Source: Escherichia phage SmurfNell. From it: a stretch of DNA of 64,000 bases. Location: the sequence record OR896824.1. The stretch is one strand, 5' to 3'. Positions 19,935 to 54,244 of this stretch are shown here, piece by piece. Both the position numbers and the translations under genes were made by a program. Under the pieces are notes generated by a model. The model did not search any database. It was not told where the DNA came from and worked only from the letters and a program-made list of their open reading frames with translations. Positions within the stretch are counted from its first letter, which is position 1; every line of letters starts with the position of its first letter.

Positions 19935-20007
19935 ATATTTGTAAGTTGATAAACAAGATCTTTTTGTTGATCCTCTGTTAGCGAAGTACACTATAGGAGT
20001 GTTATTT

Positions 20008-20760
20008 ATGGGAAAAGCACGTCAAAAAAGAGAGAACCGCAATGGTTCAAGAAAGCGTGGCAACAAGTACGAGAGCAACGTAATTCAAGCAGATTTCTCT
20101 GGTGATTACGCCAATCCAGTTGCTAAACCCCTAGTTGGTAAAAACCGTGAGCAAAAATCATATATCAATATGATCAAGAACAACACAGTGACTGTGGGTA
20201 TTGGTGAACCAGGTACTGGTAAAACCTTTATTCCATCCGTTCTTGCAGCTCAGGAACTCGTAGACATTCACTCAGATATTGAGCAAGTGATCCTCGTGCG
20301 TCCGAACGAACCTCTAGGTAAATCTCTTGGTATGCTCCCAGGTGATCTGGCAGAAAAGCTAGAGCCTTGGTTAGAGCCAATAGCTGATGGCATGAAATGG
20401 GCAATCGGTGATCACGCCTACAAAGGATATGTCGAACGTCAGAAAATTAAATTCCTGGCTATCGAACATGCCCGTGGCCGAACTTTCAACAACTCCTATG
20501 TAATTGTCGATGAAGCTCAGAATATCTCCGTTGAAGCAATGATCTGTCTCCTGACTCGTGTAGGACAAGATTGTCGTTTAATTATCTGTGGGGATATAGC
20601 GCAGAAAGACATCAAGGGTGATTCAGGTCTAGCACTTCTTATGGAAGTCTATGAGAAGTATGAAAACTCTCCTTTCTCTATGATCGAACTGATCGACAAC
20701 GTTCGCTCACCAGAGTCTAAAGCATTCTACGATATCTTTAAGGATATGGGGAAGGTGTAA
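20008..20760 (+). CDS. phoH: PhoH-like ATPase
   Basis: Walker A GEPGTGKTF and Walker B YVIVDEAQN; ATG 20008 with TAGGAG RBS. Confidence 0.85.
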   Translation: MGKARQKRENRNGSRKRGNKYESNVIQADFSGDYANPVAKPLVGKNREQKSYINMIKNNTVTVGIGEPGTGKTFIPSVLAAQELVDIHSDIEQVILVRPNEPLGKSLGMLPGDLAEKLEPWLEPIADGMKWAIGDHAYKGYVERQKIKFLAIEHARGRTFNNSYVIVDEAQNISVEAMICLLTRVGQDCRLIICGDIAQKDIKGDSGLALLMEVYEKYENSPFSMIELIDNVRSPESKAFYDIFKDMGKV

Positions 20761-21126: not shown

Positions 21127-23457
21127 ATGAGCCATCGCATAGAAAAAGTAATTAAACGTGACGGTACTGTAGAAGACTTTGCTCCTGAAAAACTCAATGG
21201 TTGGGCAGTGTATGGCTGCAAAACAGTTGATGTAAGCTGGTCATCCATCACTATGGCTGCTCAAAAAACTCTACCTAAAGGTGTTGTAGACTCCGACACC
21301 CTAATGGATGCGTTAATTAAAGCCGCTGAAGGTCTTATCAAAGATAACCCAGCATATGACGTGCCGGCTAAGGAATTACGTCTTGCGCAGATGCGTAAAC
21401 GTCTATATGATTCCTTCGAGCCTCCTTCTCTGCGTTTCTTCCACGATCATATGGTTAGTGTTGGAGCTTGGGAAGACATGAGTGCATGGATTACTGATGA
21501 ACAATTTGAAGCTCTGAATCAAGTTATCGACCATGATCGTGATCGTTTATTCACCAGTGGTGGACTGAAACAGTTCTTCGACAAGTATTCCCGTCGTAAT
21601 ATTGCAACTGGTGAAATTTATGAAACTCCGCAGTTTGCCTACATGGGTATGGCAATGGCGATGCTATCTCAACCTAACTGGACAATTCTAGATGCAATCG
21701 ACCTCTACAATGCAATGTCGCTCCACAAAATCAACGTTCCTACGCCGCCACTGGTTGGCCTGCGCTCTAGTGACCGTGGATTTGCTAGTTGCTGCCTCGT
21801 GGATTCCACTGACACGCTGGATTCAATCGACACAGCCGAGCACATCGTCTTCAAAATGGTCGCAGCCAGAGCGGGAATCGGGTATCATCTTGAAAGCCGA
21901 TCAATTGCTGATCCGGTGCGAAATGGGGCATTCCCGCATTCCGGAAAACTGCCATATTATAGACACATTGACCGATCAGTAAAAGCTAACACTCAGCAAA
22001 CCCGTGGTGGTTCTGCTACTGTGTCTTACCCATACTTCGATCCTGAAATCATTCAGTTGATGCAGGTTAAACAGCAACGTGCTACAGACGAGAATAAAAT
22101 CGATAAGATGGATTACTCTCTGAGCTTTAACAACCTTCTGTTAAAACGTTACCTGAAAAACGAAGATATTACGCTAATGTCCTACTTCTACGCACCAGAA
22201 GTTCATAAAGCGTTTTATGGTGAAGATGAGGCTAAGTTTGAAGAAATCTACGTGGCAGCGGAGAAACGTGTGGCATCTCTTACAAAGATCGACCACGAAG
22301 GAAAAACAATTCCAGCAGCTCCTAGAATCTCTGCAAAAGAAATCCTAGATACTTGGTTACGTATCCGTATGGAAACAGGGCGTATGTATGCTCATCACAT
22401 TGGTGAATCTAACCGTCATGGTAACTTCCTTGACCCGATTCGTATGACCAACCTTTGTGTTGAAATTACTCAGCCAACCCGTCCATTCCATCACATTACG
22501 GAACTGTATAAGACCCAAGATCAGTTAGACGATATGCGTCCAGAAGATATTGGTGAAGTATCTTTGTGTAACTTAGGTGGTGTTGTACTAGGTCGCATGG
22601 AATCTCTAGCTGAATGGGAGAAAACTTGCTACATCCTTCTGAAATTCGTTGATACAATCATCGAGATTCAGGACTACCCATTCCCAACCATGGAATACAC
22701 GGCTAAGAAACGTCGTAACGTTGGTATTGGTCTGATGAACGCGGCAGGTGCAATGGCAGCAGAAGGTTTGGCTTACGAAGGTGTTGAAGCCCGTAACTGG
22801 ATTCACCGTGAAGCTGAAAAGCTGTCCTACTTCCTGCACAAAGCCTCTGTACGTCTGGCTAAAGAACAAGGTGCATGTGACTGGTTTAATCGTACTAAAC
22901 CATCCAAAGGAACTCTGGTAATCGACACGTACAAGAAAACTGTTGATGAACTGGTAACTGTAGGTCTAGAAATGGATTGGGAATCTCTGCGTGCAGATAT
23001 TCTGAAATATGGTATGCGCAACTCTGTTCTGACTGCTCAGATGCCGGGAGAAAGTTCCTCTGTACTGCTAGGTGTTACTAACTCTATCGAGCCGCCTCGT
23101 AAGATTGTATCTATCAAGGGTAGTGCAGTGAATAAAGTAATTGCAATTGCTCCAGGTGCAACCGATTGGGATACATTAATGAGTTATAAACTGGCTTATG
23201 ATGTAGATCGTATCGAGTGGATCAAATGGGTAGCAACCATGCAGAAATTCTTCAGTCAGTCTATCAGTACGAATATGTACTATGACTACACCAAGTTTGA
23301 GAATGAAATCATTCCTGGTCCAGTAGTAGTTCGTGATTTCATGACTGCTGTTAAGTACGGCTGGAAAACTTGGTACTACGCTAACTTCAACACTGAAAAT
23401 GGTGGTGGAGCTGGTGAAGAAGCAGCAGGTTGTGCATCAGGTGGTTGTACTATTTAA
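21127..23457 (+). CDS. nrdA: ribonucleoside-diphosphate reductase alpha subunit (class Ia)
   Basis: ATP-cone N-terminus (IEKVIKRDGTVEDF) and long RNR catalytic body; start 21127 has AAAGGAAAG RBS, while the ORF-track ATG at 21067 falls inside the promoter. Confidence 0.85.
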   Translation: MSHRIEKVIKRDGTVEDFAPEKLNGWAVYGCKTVDVSWSSITMAAQKTLPKGVVDSDTLMDALIKAAEGLIKDNPAYDVPAKELRLAQMRKRLYDSFEPPSLRFFHDHMVSVGAWEDMSAWITDEQFEALNQVIDHDRDRLFTSGGLKQFFDKYSRRNIATGEIYETPQFAYMGMAMAMLSQPNWTILDAIDLYNAMSLHKINVPTPPLVGLRSSDRGFASCCLVDSTDTLDSIDTAEHIVFKMVAARAGIGYHLESRSIADPVRNGAFPHSGKLPYYRHIDRSVKANTQQTRGGSATVSYPYFDPEIIQLMQVKQQRATDENKIDKMDYSLSFNNLLLKRYLKNEDITLMSYFYAPEVHKAFYGEDEAKFEEIYVAAEKRVASLTKIDHEGKTIPAAPRISAKEILDTWLRIRMETGRMYAHHIGESNRHGNFLDPIRMTNLCVEITQPTRPFHHITELYKTQDQLDDMRPEDIGEVSLCNLGGVVLGRMESLAEWEKTCYILLKFVDTIIEIQDYPFPTMEYTAKKRRNVGIGLMNAAGAMAAEGLAYEGVEARNWIHREAEKLSYFLHKASVRLAKEQGACDWFNRTKPSKGTLVIDTYKKTVDELVTVGLEMDWESLRADILKYGMRNSVLTAQMPGESSSVLLGVTNSIEPPRKIVSIKGSAVNKVIAIAPGATDWDTLMSYKLAYDVDRIEWIKWVATMQKFFSQSISTNMYYDYTKFENEIIPGPVVVRDFMTAVKYGWKTWYYANFNTENGGGAGEEAAGCASGGCTI

Positions 23458-50271: not shown

Positions 50272-50970
50272 ATGAGAATCATTTCTAAATTCGCCGATGT
50301 GTATGACTTGCAGAACAGTTTATTCGACCCCGATCGTGTGTGGGAGCGTAAAACTGAAGAGTTACTGGTAAAAGTAACTGATGATGCAGAAAAGAACATT
50401 GTGCATAATCGCCAAGTATTTCGTGATGGTTCACTATCTTTCCGTGGCGACTTCGAATACTTTGTAAACCCACTGTTTGTTGCAGGTGAAGTTTACTGGT
50501 TACATGAGCTATACTGCTGGCATCCAGCATTTAGTTTCAAAACGTTCAACCTCGACGCTATGTTCGATAAAATGGAAGAGATGGGATTACATGCTCGCTC
50601 TTACCTACTGGATAAGAGTCGTGTGGATGTTCGTGAAACAATGCGTGATTTGCTTGTTGAAGCAAAACCTAAAGCAGAACGTATCTTGTCCGAGCTGCGT
50701 GTACCGATTGCATATGTGAAAGGTATTAAGAAGAACGATAACGACGATGTTCGTAACTTCGTGATTCAGACTAACATTCGTTTCCATCAGTCCGGTATTC
50801 CGTGGCAGGAAATTGAAAGTAACTTATACCGTTTACACCAAGTTCTCGAACAGTATATCTTCGGTGTACTAGGAACTGGTGAGCCTGATATGATTAAAGT
50901 ATCAGATAAAGACAGGTTAGCAGCACATGGATTTGATACAAAAACTTCTTTCAGGAATATGGCAAGGTAA
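50272..50970 (+). CDS. hypothetical protein (232 aa)
   Basis: Downstream of promoter 50212-50240; AAGAGGA RBS. Confidence 0.6.
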   Translation: MRIISKFADVYDLQNSLFDPDRVWERKTEELLVKVTDDAEKNIVHNRQVFRDGSLSFRGDFEYFVNPLFVAGEVYWLHELYCWHPAFSFKTFNLDAMFDKMEEMGLHARSYLLDKSRVDVRETMRDLLVEAKPKAERILSELRVPIAYVKGIKKNDNDDVRNFVIQTNIRFHQSGIPWQEIESNLYRLHQVLEQYIFGVLGTGEPDMIKVSDKDRLAAHGFDTKTSFRNMAR

Positions 50971-51376
50971 GTGGTATATCCTGGGAGCAGGTATAGCGAT
51001 AGGCATCGGATTCGGTGCTTATCACTTAGTAAATAAGGTAGAAACTCTAGCAGGTGATCTTGCAGTAGCTACTAAAAAGATCTCTTCTCTAGAGACTTCT
51101 CTTAATAATGTGAAAGCTGAGAGCGAACTTCGTGAGACTCGTATGAATCAGTATTTCACAATGAATAATGTTTCCCAAGCAGATCTAGACAAGAAAATTA
51201 GTCAGCTTGATAAAGCGCTTAGTCGTCAAGACATTATAGCTGCAAAGCCTGGATTGGTTACATTAATTGCTAAAAAGCAGAGTAAGGAGTTCGAGGAAAG
51301 ATTAGCATGTTTAACTGGAAACTTGGAGTACTGCTCGCAGCCGCAATCACAATCACAGGCTGTGCAGAAGAAATAA
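50927..51376 (+). CDS. putative i-spanin-like membrane protein (N-terminal TM plus coiled coil)
   Basis: N-terminal TM (WYILGAGIAIGIGFGAY) followed by coiled coil; overlaps the downstream lipoprotein gene in another frame. Confidence 0.45.
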   Translation: MDLIQKLLSGIWQGKWYILGAGIAIGIGFGAYHLVNKVETLAGDLAVATKKISSLETSLNNVKAESELRETRMNQYFTMNNVSQADLDKKISQLDKALSRQDIIAAKPGLVTLIAKKQSKEFEERLACLTGNLEYCSQPQSQSQAVQKK

Positions 51377-51660
51377 AACCAGAGCCTTCACATGAGTTAA
51401 AGCAAGCTCATGTTGACTGGCCCAAAGGACTTCAGCCGTGTAGCTTTGATTTCAAATTCGAAAAGAAATTAGCTACAAATGGTGAAGATGGCGTAGTAGT
51501 TGTTGTACCATACAAAGATTGGAATGCAAAAGCAAAATGCGAGGAAGCAGTTTACTCTTACATTTCACGGCTGACTAGTATGGTTTGCTTCTACCGCCAA
51601 GATTTACAAGAAAAACGTTGCTTAGTTTACTATCCACCCATTACAAATAGGAAAGATTAA
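51307..51660 (+). CDS. putative o-spanin-like lipoprotein
   Basis: Lipobox signal peptide (LLAAAITITGC); embedded/overlapping arrangement with the upstream membrane protein. Confidence 0.45.
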   Translation: MFNWKLGVLLAAAITITGCAEEIKPEPSHELKQAHVDWPKGLQPCSFDFKFEKKLATNGEDGVVVVVPYKDWNAKAKCEEAVYSYISRLTSMVCFYRQDLQEKRCLVYYPPITNRKD

Positions 51661-52409
51661 TGTCAGTATTAGTCGGTTTACATGGTGAGGCTGGTGCAGG
51701 GAAAGATACCGTTGCAAAATTAATGATTGACTGGTGCAATGACACGTATCCAACGTGTTTATCCCGTCGTTACAGTTTTGCTAAACCCGTTTACGAACTT
51801 GCATCCGTAATCCTCGGGGTAACTCCAGAGTTTCTGGGAGAGCGCAGGGGAAAAGAGATTAGTCAATGGTTTACAGTGACTCAATCTCAATTGGAGCGAG
51901 CTAGAGACGTATGGTTTAAGTACGGTATTGATAAGTTTGAGGACTTCTCGTACATTTGGCCGATTTTTGAAGGAAAATACCTTGATCCTCAGCAATTGAT
52001 TGGACAAGAAGATGATGCACTCTATAGTGTGTTTATCTCCCCAAGAAAGATGCTACAGCTTGTAGGTACTGAGTTAGGAAGGCAGCTGGTGCATGAACGC
52101 ATTTGGCTCATAATTCTGGAGCAATCCATCGCTAAAGACGACCCAGACGTCGCAATAGTTACAGATGTGAGATTCCCTAATGAAGGAGAGTTAATCCGAG
52201 AAACCAATCATCTAGATATGGATTCTTTGTTGATAAATGTAGTACCAGCAGAGCAGGAATACACTATTAAGACAGATCATCCGTCTGAAAAAGGTATCCC
52301 AGCTAAATACATAATCCATGAACTGGTGAATCCGTTCATCGGTATGGATAACCTTAAACTAGAAGTGTATAACTTCTGTGACTTAGAGCTAGAACCACTA
52401 GTTGGATAA
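51660..52409 (+). CDS. dnk: deoxynucleoside monophosphate kinase
   Basis: N-terminal P-loop GLHGEAGAGKDTVAK typical of phage dNMP kinases. Confidence 0.65.
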   Translation: MSVLVGLHGEAGAGKDTVAKLMIDWCNDTYPTCLSRRYSFAKPVYELASVILGVTPEFLGERRGKEISQWFTVTQSQLERARDVWFKYGIDKFEDFSYIWPIFEGKYLDPQQLIGQEDDALYSVFISPRKMLQLVGTELGRQLVHERIWLIILEQSIAKDDPDVAIVTDVRFPNEGELIRETNHLDMDSLLINVVPAEQEYTIKTDHPSEKGIPAKYIIHELVNPFIGMDNLKLEVYNFCDLELEPLVG

Positions 52410-52421
52410 TTAAGGATCACT

Positions 52422-53021
52422 ATGACTAATAAGAAAGAAGAAAAGACTAACCTGTTCCACTCCGTTCACCAATCTAACGAGTATACTTTTTTCTTTGACG
52501 AGGAACTCGGGCCAGCAGATGAGTATCGTGACTTATCTATGATCCTGGTGCAGGCTAATGAAGGAGATGTCATTAATCTGATGATTAATGGGCCTGGTGG
52601 TTATGTTGATACTGCTGCACAGCTATCTAACCTGATCGCTAACTGTCGTGGAACGGTTATTGGACACCTGCTCGGTCCTAGTGCTTCTGCTTACTGCACA
52701 ATCTTCCTGTCTTGCCACGGTTGGGTTGTTCATCCACACTCTACGCTTATGGGACATACGTTCTCTGGCGGATTCTGTGAGAAGGGTCAAGAAATCAAGA
52801 AAGCCTATGAATCTTACAATCAGTTTGTAGAAGATATGATGCTCGATATCTACTTCCCGTTCTTCTCCATCGAAGAAATTGAGGATATGGTAAAAGAGAA
52901 CAAGAATATCTATCTCAACAGCAAGGAAATCAATAAGCGTATTGAGAAATTGGCAGCATACCGCGAGGAGCAATTCAGCAAAGCTCAATGTCCTCACCCT
53001 GAGGAACATGGAGAAGTGTAA
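52422..53021 (+). CDS. ClpP-like serine peptidase
   Basis: INGPGG, GPSASA (Ser) and VVHPHSTLMGH (His) segments resemble the ClpP catalytic motifs. Confidence 0.5.
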   Translation: MTNKKEEKTNLFHSVHQSNEYTFFFDEELGPADEYRDLSMILVQANEGDVINLMINGPGGYVDTAAQLSNLIANCRGTVIGHLLGPSASAYCTIFLSCHGWVVHPHSTLMGHTFSGGFCEKGQEIKKAYESYNQFVEDMMLDIYFPFFSIEEIEDMVKENKNIYLNSKEINKRIEKLAAYREEQFSKAQCPHPEEHGEV

Positions 53022-53031
53022 GTAGTTTTAA

Positions 53032-53063
53032 GCCAGAGTTTAACGACTCTGGCTTTTCTTTTG
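53032..53063 (+). terminator. rho-independent terminator downstream of the ClpP-like gene
   Basis: AGCCAGAG-TTTAACGA-CTCTGGCT hairpin followed by TTTCTTTT. Confidence 0.7.
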
Positions 53064-53177
53064 CCTAAAATTCTTCTTGACAACGACAAAATTTTGTGCT
53101 CCAGAAGTGATCTTTAAAAACACGTTGTAATTTTCCTCTAGAATTAGTATAATGGTAATGGTTAGAGGAGGTTACAA

Positions 53178-53834
53178 GTGGAAAAGTTTCTACAACTATT
53201 AACGGTACTGCTCCAAGAAGCGAAAGATCCAGCATCGCTTCTTAAACGTCTGCTAACTATCTTAGTTGCTGTCATTATTTTCTTATTTGTTAGTAATACT
53301 AGCGAGGTGATGTCGTTCTTAAAGACTTTCTCCACGTCTGCGGTTTTACAGGATGTTCAAACCCAAAGGATAGATAACTTTCCTAATATAGCGAGAGAAA
53401 AGAGCATGGTTCTTTTCTCCCAGACGGGTGCGGATGCTGTTTTTGTAGTCAAGTATAAACCCGATGCTATCAATGATTATTCCAACATTATTGCATGGGA
53501 AAGCAATGCGCAATTAGATAGGGCTGACTTGGCCGATAAAGCAGTAAATAAGACGTCTGAGATGTATAGACGTCACCTAGAAGGTTTTAACTACGCTTCG
53601 GATTTAACTGTAAAGATTAATAAATACATGGGGGCAAATATCCCTTCGTTTAAAAACGTAACATTTAATTATATTTACACGTGTCCGTACTTCAACCTAA
53701 ACAACATCTATGCTGGATATATTGGTGTTGCTTGGAAGGATAAACCCGTAGATAATGCCGACTCGGAACAATTTAACGAGTACTTAACAAAGCTCTGTTC
53801 ACCACAGCAGAGATCATTAGGTAGATCAATATGA
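53178..53834 (+). CDS. holin (T5-type, 218 aa)
   Basis: Single TM (LLTILVAVIIFLFV); immediately upstream of and overlapping the endolysin gene; length matches the T5 holin as I recall it. Confidence 0.6.
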   Translation: MEKFLQLLTVLLQEAKDPASLLKRLLTILVAVIIFLFVSNTSEVMSFLKTFSTSAVLQDVQTQRIDNFPNIAREKSMVLFSQTGADAVFVVKYKPDAINDYSNIIAWESNAQLDRADLADKAVNKTSEMYRRHLEGFNYASDLTVKINKYMGANIPSFKNVTFNYIYTCPYFNLNNIYAGYIGVAWKDKPVDNADSEQFNEYLTKLCSPQQRSLGRSI

Positions 53835-54244
53835 GTTTTAAATTTGGTAAAAATAGTGAAAAACAATTAGCTACTGTTAAGCCTGAGCTACAAAAAGTAG
53901 CTCGTAGGGCTTTAGAACTATCTCCGTATGACTTCACAATCGTACAAGGTATTCGTACAGTAGCACAAAGTGCCCAAAACATTGCTAACGGTACTTCATT
54001 CTTGAAAGACCCTAGCAAGAGTAAGCATGTGACTGGAAATGCCCTCGATTTCGCACCATATATTAATGGTAAGATTGACTGGAAAGATCTAGAAGCATTT
54101 TGGGCAGTTAAGAAGGCTTTTGAACAAGCTGGAAAAGAACTTGGTATCAAACTTCGTTTTGGTGCTGACTGGAATGCCTCAGGGGATTATCATGACGAAA
54201 TCGATCGTGGTACCTATGACGGCGGTCATGTAGAATTGGTTTAA
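53831..54244 (+). CDS. endolysin (L-alanyl-D-glutamate peptidase, T5-type)
   Basis: 137 aa; H...D...H zinc-peptidase arrangement (SKHVTGNALDF...DGGHVEL); terminator at 54256-54278. Confidence 0.75.
   Translation: MSFKFGKNSEKQLATVKPELQKVARRALELSPYDFTIVQGIRTVAQSAQNIANGTSFLKDPSKSKHVTGNALDFAPYINGKIDWKDLEAFWAVKKAFEQAGKELGIKLRFGADWNASGDYHDEIDRGTYDGGHVELV

What the first reader, a model, noticed from the sequence alone, without database searches (positions are those of the whole stretch)
52422..53021. ClpP-like serine peptidase next to dNMP kinase
Segments INGPGG, GPSASA and HPHSTLMGH resemble the ClpP oxyanion/Ser/His motifs, but the protein is short and divergent. It may be an active phage protease or a decoy that poisons the host ClpXP/ClpAP machines.
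Basis: inference. Interest (0 to 1): 0.45.

Follow-up and report, generated by a model that had tools for sequence, protein, structure and literature searches.

The report
T5.042-type phage ClpP-like peptidase
This is the well-conserved but functionally uncharacterised ClpP-like serine peptidase gene of T5-like phages (orthologue of T5 gene T5.042), already annotated in hundreds of phage genomes; it looks like an active, non-structural accessory protease, not a decoy.

Summary
The ORF at 52422-53021 (+) is real. It encodes a 199-aa protein 86% identical to T5.042 of phage T5, and the window is a T5-like (Demerecviridae) genome. The protein passes Pfam CLP_protease, and its AlphaFold model has a ClpP fold.

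Ser and His are present in 169 of 170 family members. The third triad residue is Asp in most of the family but Asn (N162) here and in all E. coli/Salmonella T5-likes examined. dN/dS is about 0.1. The ClpX/ClpA docking pocket is not conserved.

The gene is not the head protease. T5-likes have a separate prohead protease, and family members in other phages sit among nucleotide-metabolism and replication genes, often beside a PhoH-like ATPase.

T5.042 knock-down gave no fitness defect in a published screen. A 2023 paper states that the function is unknown.

Verdict: already annotated and ordinary as a finding. An active accessory ClpP-fold peptidase is favoured; the decoy reading is disfavoured but not excluded.

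The parts
52422..53021 (+). CDS of the ClpP-like peptidase (199 aa), orthologue of phage T5 gene T5.042
   Evidence: ORF list. 86% aa identity to T5.042. PHROG 1827 E 1.8e-86 over the full length. Pfam PF00574 above the gathering score. ClpP fold, TM 0.64-0.70.
52412..52416 (+). Shine-Dalgarno-like AAGGA, 5 nt upstream of the ATG and 3 nt after the dnk stop codon
   Evidence: Read directly from the sequence.
52596..52601 (+). Codons of Gly59-Gly60, in the (S/G)PGG motif that aligns with the ClpP oxyanion-hole glycine (E. coli ClpP Gly68)
   Evidence: Present in 170 of 170 family members. Aligns with INSPGG of ClpP.
52686..52688 (+). Codon of Ser89, the predicted nucleophile (aligns with E. coli ClpP Ser97)
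   Evidence: Present in 169 of 170 family members, the remaining one being a gap. Alignments.
52755..52757 (+). Codon of His112, the predicted general base (aligns with E. coli ClpP His122)
   Evidence: Present in 169 of 170 family members. Alignments.
52905..52907 (+). Codon of Asn162, at the position of the ClpP triad Asp171
   Evidence: Family column: D 138, E 17, N 8, T 5. It is Asn in the window and in all 12 E. coli/Salmonella T5-like loci examined, and Asp in the Klebsiella-type and more distant Demerecviridae.
53030..53065 (+). Intrinsic terminator-like hairpin (11-bp stem, then a T tract) that ends the spanin-dnk-ClpP-like transcription unit
   Evidence: Terminator scan. The T5 record annotates a rho-independent terminator and then a promoter at the same relative place.
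51660..52409 (+). Upstream gene, probably co-transcribed: deoxynucleoside monophosphate kinase (context)
   Evidence: PHROG 139. Pfam DNMK. The 12-nt intergenic gap leaves little room for a terminator or promoter between dnk and the ClpP-like gene, and the scan placed none there.

Best explanation
The gene encodes a cytoplasmic, non-structural ClpP-fold serine peptidase. It belongs to a large phage-specific branch of the ClpP family (PHROG 1827; T5.042 is its member in phage T5).

Shown: ClpP fold. Conserved oxyanion Gly-Gly, Ser89 and His112. Asn162 in place of the triad Asp. Strong purifying selection. Probably co-transcribed with the spanin and dNMP-kinase genes, ending at its own terminator. 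No head-gene neighbourhood anywhere in the family.

Inferred: it assembles into ClpP-like rings and cleaves peptides or unfolded proteins in the infected cell during the early/middle phase, as a dispensable accessory function such as proteome remodelling or processing of a phage or host protein. It does this without docking the host ClpX/ClpA unfoldases, because the docking pocket and the axial N-terminal loops are not conserved. The Asn variant in the E. coli/Salmonella clade probably gives an attenuated or conditionally activated enzyme.
For: Family and fold:
- Pfam CLP_protease, 28.8 bits against a gathering score of 20.2.
- All 104 PDB sequence hits of the clade profile are ClpP, best E 3.6e-14.
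- AF2 model with pLDDT 82.5. The 50 best Foldseek PDB hits listed are all ClpP: TMq about 0.64, rmsd about 2.6 A over about 160 columns.

Active site:
- S89, H112, G59 and G60 are kept in 169-170 of 170 members. Position 162 is D/E in 155 of 170.

Selection:
- dN/dS 0.07-0.13.

Size of the family:
- 552 representatives (50% identity clusters) at E<=1e-30.
- 1278 phage records across Demerecviridae, Otagovirus, Pakpunavirus, Barbavirus, Schitoviridae, Vequintavirinae, Zobellviridae and jumbo phages.

Non-structural context:
- The order spanin-dnk-ClpP-like-holin-endolysin is conserved down to 40% identity.
- Elsewhere the neighbours are PhoH, PD-(D/E)XK nuclease, RNR, DHFR, gp32, gp59, ligase and primase. 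No capsid, terminase or scaffold family is among the 25 commonest neighbour families.
- BF23, a T5 relative, has a separate prohead protease (ORF164) besides the Clp protease (ORF45) (PMC10644984).

Independence from ClpX/ClpA:
- 2 of 16 residues of the ADEP/IGF site are identical. F82N, Y60N, I90H and L114H.

Dispensability:
- T5.042 is scored 'Not Fit' in the CRISPRi-ART screen (PMC11879866, supplementary file 16).
Against: - Asn at the third triad position is what makes Listeria ClpP1 inactive on its own. The enzyme of this particular clade could therefore be weak, or inactive, unless something activates it.
- No substrate, oligomeric state or activity has been measured. The only published statement I found is that the function is unknown.
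- Three peptides of the BF23 orthologue were found in purified virions, which does not sit easily with a purely cytoplasmic role.
- The pocket comparison rests on a sequence alignment at about 16-20% identity.
Confidence: 0.55

Rival explanations
1. Decoy or hetero-oligomer. The protein stacks onto or mixes into host ClpP rings, as Listeria ClpP1 does with ClpP2. This would either poison host ClpXP/ClpAP or redirect it to new substrates.
For: The E. coli/Salmonella T5-like clade shares both hallmarks of Listeria ClpP1: a Ser-His-Asn triad and no chaperone-docking site. Listeria ClpP1 chains (4jcq, 4jcr) are among the best PDB sequence hits of the single protein.
Against: - Ser and His are kept throughout the family, and most members have a complete Ser-His-Asp triad. 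This points to intrinsic catalysis.
- Identity to E. coli ClpP is only 16-19%, so a complementary handle interface is not expected.
- The family occurs in phages of very different hosts.
- Knock-down of T5.042 gave no fitness effect.
Confidence: 0.07
2. Second virion-associated maturation protease: a displaced relative of the ClpP-type prohead proteases that processes a capsid or tail protein, or is packaged into the virion.
For: The protein scores better against phage ClpP-related head-maturation protease models than against cellular ClpP models: PHROG 1684 E 2.1e-20 and NF045542 E 1.3e-9, against TIGR00493 E 0.036. The BF23 orthologue was detected in purified virions by MS.
Against: - It scores far below the NF045542 cut-off (38 against 120 bits).
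- It is never next to capsid or scaffold genes. The one exception I saw is a Schitoviridae phage in which terminase genes lie nearby on the opposite strand.
- T5-likes have a dedicated prohead protease.
- Dihydrofolate reductase, another non-structural enzyme, was found in the same virion preparation at higher intensity, so carry-over is plausible.
- T5.042 is not a fitness gene.
Confidence: 0.12
3. Proteolytic partner of the phage PhoH-like ATPase, forming a phage-encoded ATP-dependent protease or an RNA/protein-processing pair.
For: - PhoH is the commonest Pfam family within 3 genes of family members, in 6 of 20 lineage representatives.
- It abuts or overlaps the ClpP-like gene in phiPsa315, Barbavirus, a Zobellviridae phage and the uncultured loci L017/L018.
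- It lies within 6 kb on the same strand in about 10 of 25 lineage clusters. None of the 64 loci carrying other ClpP-like genes has one.
- The window encodes a PhoH homologue as well.
Against: - In T5-likes the two genes are 32 kb apart.
- Many lineages show no PhoH within the +/-3.5-6 kb examined.
- From general knowledge, PhoH-family proteins are RNA-helicase-like P-loop ATPases, not AAA+ unfoldases.
- Both genes are common in early metabolic modules, so linkage may reflect co-regulation only.
Confidence: 0.08
4. Lysis-timing factor: a protease that acts on a component of the lysis machinery, explaining its place inside the split lysis cassette.
For: In all Demerecviridae examined it lies between the spanins (with dnk) and the holin-endolysin pair. 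One unrelated locus has a cell-wall hydrolase directly upstream (L019), and KaOmega has an endolysin 5 genes upstream.
Against: The N terminus is hydrophilic, with no signal peptide or TM segment apparent by eye, so the protein should be cytoplasmic. A terminator and a separate promoter divide it from the holin gene. Most family members in other phages are not near lysis genes.
Confidence: 0.05

Closest known systems
Phage T5 gene T5.042 ('ATP-dependent protease', YP_006870.1) and its orthologues (BF23 ORF45, Bas27 'Clp-like protease'); PHROG 1827
   Same: 86% aa identity and the same length. Same gene order, with a terminator and then a promoter before the holin gene. Full-length PHROG match, E 1.8e-86.
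   Different: Nothing of substance; this is a direct orthologue. Function is unknown for all of them.
Cellular ClpP (MEROPS S14; E. coli ClpP, Pfam PF00574)
   Same: Same fold. Oxyanion Gly, nucleophile Ser and general-base His in aligned positions. Similar length. A long helix at the place of the handle helix E.
   Different: - 16-20% identity.
- Fails the ClpP equivalog model (13.8 against 308.6 bits).
- Triad Asp is Asn.
- ClpX/ClpA (IGF/ADEP) pocket not conserved.
- No ClpP-like N-terminal axial loop: residues 1-19 are hydrophilic and of low confidence.
- Extended C-terminal helix with a charged tail.
Listeria monocytogenes ClpP1 (PDB 4jcq; ClpP1/2 heterocomplex 4ryf)
   Same: Ser-His-Asn triad and no chaperone-docking site (PMC9257651). 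Among the best PDB sequence hits.
   Different: ClpP1 is a cellular paralogue that is activated by stacking on ClpP2. Here no paralogous partner is known. Most of the phage family carries Asp rather than Asn.
ClpP-related phage head-maturation proteases (NCBIfam NF045542; PHROG 1684, 26628, 94)
   Same: These are nearer in sequence than cellular ClpP. Phage origin. No ATPase partner is required for that group (general knowledge).
   Different: - Below the family cut-off (38 against 120 bits).
- Not encoded next to portal, scaffold or capsid genes.
- No fused scaffold or capsid domain.
- T5-likes use a different, dedicated prohead protease.

Membership tests
ClpP/S14 peptidase family (Pfam PF00574 CLP_protease) | Sequence match above the curated Pfam gathering score | tested here: met
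   28.8 bits against a cut-off of 20.2, E 1.3e-6, profile positions 39-138 of 182. The clade profile hits only ClpP chains in the PDB, best E 3.6e-14.
ClpP/S14 peptidase family (Pfam PF00574 CLP_protease) | ClpP (ClpP/crotonase-clan) alpha/beta fold with a handle helix | tested here: met
   AF2 model, pLDDT 82.5. The 50 best Foldseek PDB hits listed are all ClpP, TMq 0.60-0.65, rmsd about 2.6 A over about 160 columns. Helix 124-144 lies at the place of helix E.
ClpP/S14 peptidase family (Pfam PF00574 CLP_protease) | Catalytic Ser and His, plus oxyanion glycine | tested here: met
   S89, H112 and G59-G60 align with E. coli Ser97, His122 and Gly68. They are kept in 169-170 of 170 family members.
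ClpP/S14 peptidase family (Pfam PF00574 CLP_protease) | Catalytic Asp completing the Ser-His-Asp triad | tested here: not met
   The aligned residue is Asn162 in the window and in all E. coli/Salmonella T5-likes examined. It is Asp or Glu in 155 of 170 members of the wider family.
Bona fide cellular ClpP (NCBIfam TIGR00493 equivalog; partner of ClpX/ClpA) | Score above the equivalog cut-off | tested here: not met
   13.8 bits against a cut-off of 308.6.
Bona fide cellular ClpP (NCBIfam TIGR00493 equivalog; partner of ClpX/ClpA) | Hydrophobic pocket that binds the IGF/IGL loops of ClpX/ClpA (the ADEP site) | tested here: not met
   Of the 16 E. coli site residues listed in 10.1101/2023.03.01.530711, 2 are identical. 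F82N, Y60N, I90H, L114H, V28T and A52Q. Caveat: the alignment is at low identity.
Bona fide cellular ClpP (NCBIfam TIGR00493 equivalog; partner of ClpX/ClpA) | N-terminal axial loop or plug that gates the pore | tested here: not met
   Residues 1-19 are hydrophilic (MTNKKEEKTN...), poorly conserved, and modelled with pLDDT of about 47-65. There is no counterpart of ALVPMVIEQ.
Bona fide cellular ClpP (NCBIfam TIGR00493 equivalog; partner of ClpX/ClpA) | Heptameric rings stacked into a tetradecamer; ATP-dependent proteolysis with an unfoldase | not testable with these tools
   Only single-chain structure prediction was available. No biochemical data were found.
ClpP-related phage head-maturation protease (NCBIfam NF045542) | Score above the curated cut-off | tested here: not met
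   38.2 bits against a cut-off of 120.
ClpP-related phage head-maturation protease (NCBIfam NF045542) | Encoded in the head module (portal - protease - scaffold/capsid) | tested here: not met
   Here the neighbours are spanins, dNMP kinase, holin and endolysin. Within +/-3 genes of 20 lineage representatives, no capsid, terminase or scaffold family is among the 25 commonest Pfam families. BF23 has a separate prohead protease.
PHROG 1827 (phage 'ATP-dependent protease', T5.042 group) | Full-length profile match | tested here: met
   E 1.8e-86, residues 1-198 on profile positions 5-201 of 202. 86% identity to T5.042.
SppA/S49 and NfeD-type ClpP-clan peptidases | Profile match above cut-off | tested here: not met
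   NfeD1b_N scores 19 bits against a cut-off of 40. No SppA/S49 family is listed.

The most novel reading that the evidence does not exclude
The T5.042 family may be a distinct, phage-specific, non-structural branch of the ClpP family that works with a non-canonical partner. One candidate is the phage's own PhoH-like ATPase, which would be a new kind of ATP-dependent protease pairing; the recurrent PhoH-ClpP-like gene adjacency suggests it. For the Asn-triad clade of E. coli/Salmonella T5-likes, the other candidate is the host ClpP, onto which it would stack as Listeria ClpP1 stacks on ClpP2 and so rewire host proteolysis.
Probability: 0.1. Interest if true: 0.75.

Novelty: already known. Interest (0 to 1): 0.3.

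Why it matters
As a genome-scan finding it is ordinary. The gene has been annotated by similarity since the T5 genome was published, and it carries a Clp-protease label in hundreds of records.

What remains open is its function. It is a deeply conserved, strongly constrained, apparently dispensable protease that is found in many families of large virulent phages, always outside the head module. If its substrate were found, it would add a protease to the known repertoire of early/middle phage functions.

Two observations from this analysis could guide experiments: the Asp-to-Asn switch in the coliphage clade, and the recurrent linkage to PhoH.

Tried and rejected
I re-ran it with phage homologues only.
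- Oligomer or hetero-oligomer prediction is not possible with the single-chain tool.
- Locus searches with broad family alignments A3, A4 and A6 failed for lack of a conserved stretch. Only A2 and A5 worked.
- Literature: a search for 'T5.042', 'T5p042' and 'T5p041' found nothing. The HIDEN-SEQ essentiality preprint does not mention the gene. Two phage genome papers only repeat the ClpP annotation.
- PADLOC gave no defence-system match.
- The head-maturation protease reading was considered and rejected on cut-off and gene context.
- The periplasmic or lysis reading was considered and thought unlikely: the N terminus is hydrophilic, and a terminator and promoter separate the gene from the holin gene.
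- One family representative looked up for context (P0026) sits on a 1.6-kb contig and was uninformative.
- The antisense ORF 52623-53009 (128 aa) was treated as spurious, because the sense frame is the one that is conserved and under purifying selection.

Full report
**What is there**

The window is a T5-like phage genome. A 2.3-kb stretch around the finding matches 445 phage records at 80-95% nucleotide identity. The best is Escherichia phage TrudiGerster (Demerecviridae, Epseptimavirus) at 91.7%.

The ORF 52422-53021 (+) is real. It has an AAGGA ribosome-binding site at 52412-52416, 5 nt upstream of the ATG. It starts 12 nt after the stop codon of the dNMP kinase gene (51660-52409). It is followed by a strong terminator-like hairpin at 53030-53055 with a T tract, and then by promoter-like hexamers in front of the holin gene.

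The gene order is i-spanin, o-spanin, dNMP kinase, this gene, terminator, promoter, T-type holin, M15 endolysin. The reference T5 record shows exactly this layout. There the gene is T5.042, annotated 'ATP-dependent protease, identified by sequence similarity'. The window protein is 86% identical to T5.042 over 198 residues. GenBank records call the orthologues 'Clp-like protease', 'ATP-dependent Clp protease proteolytic subunit' or 'hypothetical protein'.

**The observation**

In HMMER alignments to ClpP structures and in an alignment with E. coli ClpP they align with three ClpP features: the oxyanion-hole (S)PGG motif, the nucleophile Ser in GxxAS, and the catalytic His.

The protein passes the Pfam CLP_protease gathering score (28.8 against 20.2 bits). 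A profile of the Demerecviridae clade hits 104 PDB sequences, all ClpP, with a best E-value of 3.6e-14. An AlphaFold2 model (pLDDT 82.5) superposes on ClpP structures with TM about 0.64-0.70 and rmsd about 2.6 A over about 160 columns, and the 50 best PDB hits listed are all ClpP.

The description 'short' is wrong: the protein has 199 aa, against 207 for the E. coli ClpP precursor.

**Active site and selection**

An exhaustive profile search found a large family: 13,083 cluster representatives at E<=1e-3 and 552 at E<=1e-30. Most are stand-alone proteins of about 180-320 aa with variable acidic tails.

I aligned 170 members, including 148 distant representatives that are 24-44% identical to the window protein. 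The results were:
- Gly59 and Gly60 are invariant.
- Ser89 and His112 are present in 169 of 170; the exception is a gap.
- The position of the ClpP triad Asp is Asp in 138, Glu in 17, Asn in 8 and Thr in 5.

The window protein has Asn162 at that position, as do T5 and all 12 E. coli/Salmonella T5-like loci examined. Klebsiella-type and more distant Demerecviridae keep Asp.

Pairwise dN/dS against T5-like orthologues is 0.07-0.13. This conservation pattern is what an enzyme shows, not a decoy.

The Asn variant has a precedent. Listeria ClpP1 has a Ser-His-Asn triad, is an inactive heptamer alone, lacks chaperone-docking sites, and becomes active when stacked on ClpP2 (PMC9257651).

**Relation to host unfoldases**

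I took the 16 residues of the E. coli ClpP ADEP/IGF-loop site as listed in 10.1101/2023.03.01.530711. Only 2 are identical in the window protein. Six are replaced by polar residues: F82N, Y60N, I90H (His invariant in the clade), L114H, V28T and A52Q.

The first 19 residues are hydrophilic, poorly conserved and of low confidence. There is no counterpart of the ClpP axial loop.

Canonical docking of ClpX/ClpA is therefore unlikely. The caveat is that the alignment is at 16-20% identity.

**Not the head protease**

The protein scores better against phage ClpP-related head-maturation protease models than against cellular ClpP models. PHROG 1684 gives E 2.1e-20 and NF045542 gives E 1.3e-9, while TIGR00493 gives E 0.036. 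It is nevertheless far below the NF045542 cut-off, at 38 against 120 bits.

T5-likes have a dedicated prohead protease. In BF23 this is ORF164, distinct from the Clp protease ORF45 (PMC10644984).

Gene context argues the same way:
- Within Demerecviridae the neighbourhood spanin-dnk-ClpP-like-holin-endolysin is kept down to 40% protein identity.
- Outside that family, members occur in Otagovirus, Pakpunavirus, Barbavirus, Schitoviridae, Vequintavirinae, Zobellviridae, jumbo phages and many uncultured phages.
- There they lie among DNA ligase, primase, dCMP deaminase, thymidylate synthase, ribonucleotide reductase, DHFR, gp32, gp59, RNase H, PD-(D/E)XK nuclease and PhoH.
- A Pfam census of 119 proteins within three genes of the family member, in 20 lineage representatives, listed no capsid, terminase or scaffold family among the 25 commonest families.

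**A recurrent neighbour**

The commonest neighbouring family is PhoH, found in 6 of 20 representatives.
- PhoH abuts or overlaps the ClpP-like gene in phiPsa315, a Barbavirus, a Zobellviridae phage and the uncultured loci L017/L018.
- It lies within 6 kb on the same strand, nearly always upstream, in about 10 of 25 lineage clusters defined at 55% identity or more.
- None of the 64 loci that carry other, more distant ClpP-like genes has a PhoH gene.
- In several loci a PD-(D/E)XK-type gene of about 220-250 aa sits between the two.
- The window also encodes a PhoH protein (19999-20760, Pfam E 2e-61), but 32 kb away.

I regard this as a real but unexplained linkage. It may reflect co-regulation in early metabolic modules rather than a physical partnership.

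**What is published**

- The BF23 study found three peptides of the orthologue in purified virions and states that its function is unknown. Dihydrofolate reductase was also found in those virions, so carry-over is possible.
- In the genome-wide CRISPRi-ART screen of T5, T5.042 ('putative ATP-dependent Clp protease') is classed 'Not Fit', meaning dispensable under laboratory conditions (PMC11879866, supplementary file 16).
- I found no functional study.
- There is no match to known defence-system proteins.

**Conclusion**

The finding is correct as an observation and correct in its family assignment. The gene is an already annotated, widely conserved one.

The best-supported reading is an active, non-structural accessory ClpP-fold peptidase that does not use the host ClpX/ClpA docking mode. 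In the coliphage/Salmonella-phage clade its triad is modified to Ser-His-Asn.

The decoy or hetero-oligomer idea is disfavoured by conservation of the catalytic residues and by low similarity to host ClpP. It is not excluded, and the resemblance to Listeria ClpP1 keeps it alive at low probability. A role as a second virion protease, as a PhoH partner, or in lysis timing are further low-probability rivals.

Substrate, oligomeric state and activity are unknown and need experiments.

Noticed in passing
window 19999-20760 (+); L086 3214-3975; L088 3198-3983; L094 2786-3445; L017 6522-7838: A PhoH-like ATPase gene lies directly beside the T5.042-family gene in several unrelated phage lineages. It is the commonest neighbouring Pfam family (6 of 20 lineage representatives). 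None of 64 control loci with other ClpP-like genes has one. In the window PhoH is present but 32 kb away.
   Followed up: partly
window 52905-52907 (Asn162 codon): The triad Asp is replaced by Asn in the window, in T5 and in all E. coli/Salmonella T5-like loci examined. Klebsiella-type and more distant Demerecviridae, and most of the wider family, keep Asp or Glu. This mirrors Listeria ClpP1.
   Followed up: partly
window 50927-51660 and 53178-54244: The lysis cassette is split. The i- and o-spanin genes lie upstream of dnk and the ClpP-like gene in one apparent transcription unit. The T-type holin and the M15 endolysin follow behind a terminator and their own promoter. This arrangement is conserved down to 40% identity of the ClpP-like protein.
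   Followed up: partly
L134 5265-5921, L140 5256-5969, L142 5232-5981, L146 2822-3493; L016 2793-3461: In one subfamily of uncultured phages a gene of about 220-250 aa sits between PhoH and the ClpP-like gene, giving a conserved three-gene arrangement. Where I scanned the equivalent gene (L016, L019) it is a PD-(D/E)XK nuclease.
   Followed up: partly
window 50272-50970 (+): The 232-aa protein upstream of the spanins matches PHROG 4243 (unknown function) over its full length. Its T5 counterpart, T5.047, is listed as 'Fit' in the CRISPRi-ART table, so it is an important gene of unknown function.
   Followed up: no
L174 2937-2938 (T5 record 22336-22337, inside dnk): The T5 record annotates a major single-strand interruption (nick) site inside the dnk gene, just upstream of T5.042. 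I did not check whether the window keeps the nick consensus at the equivalent place.
   Followed up: no
window 52623-53009 (-): A 128-aa antisense ORF lies entirely inside the ClpP-like gene. It is probably spurious, because the sense frame is the one that is conserved and under purifying selection.
   Followed up: no
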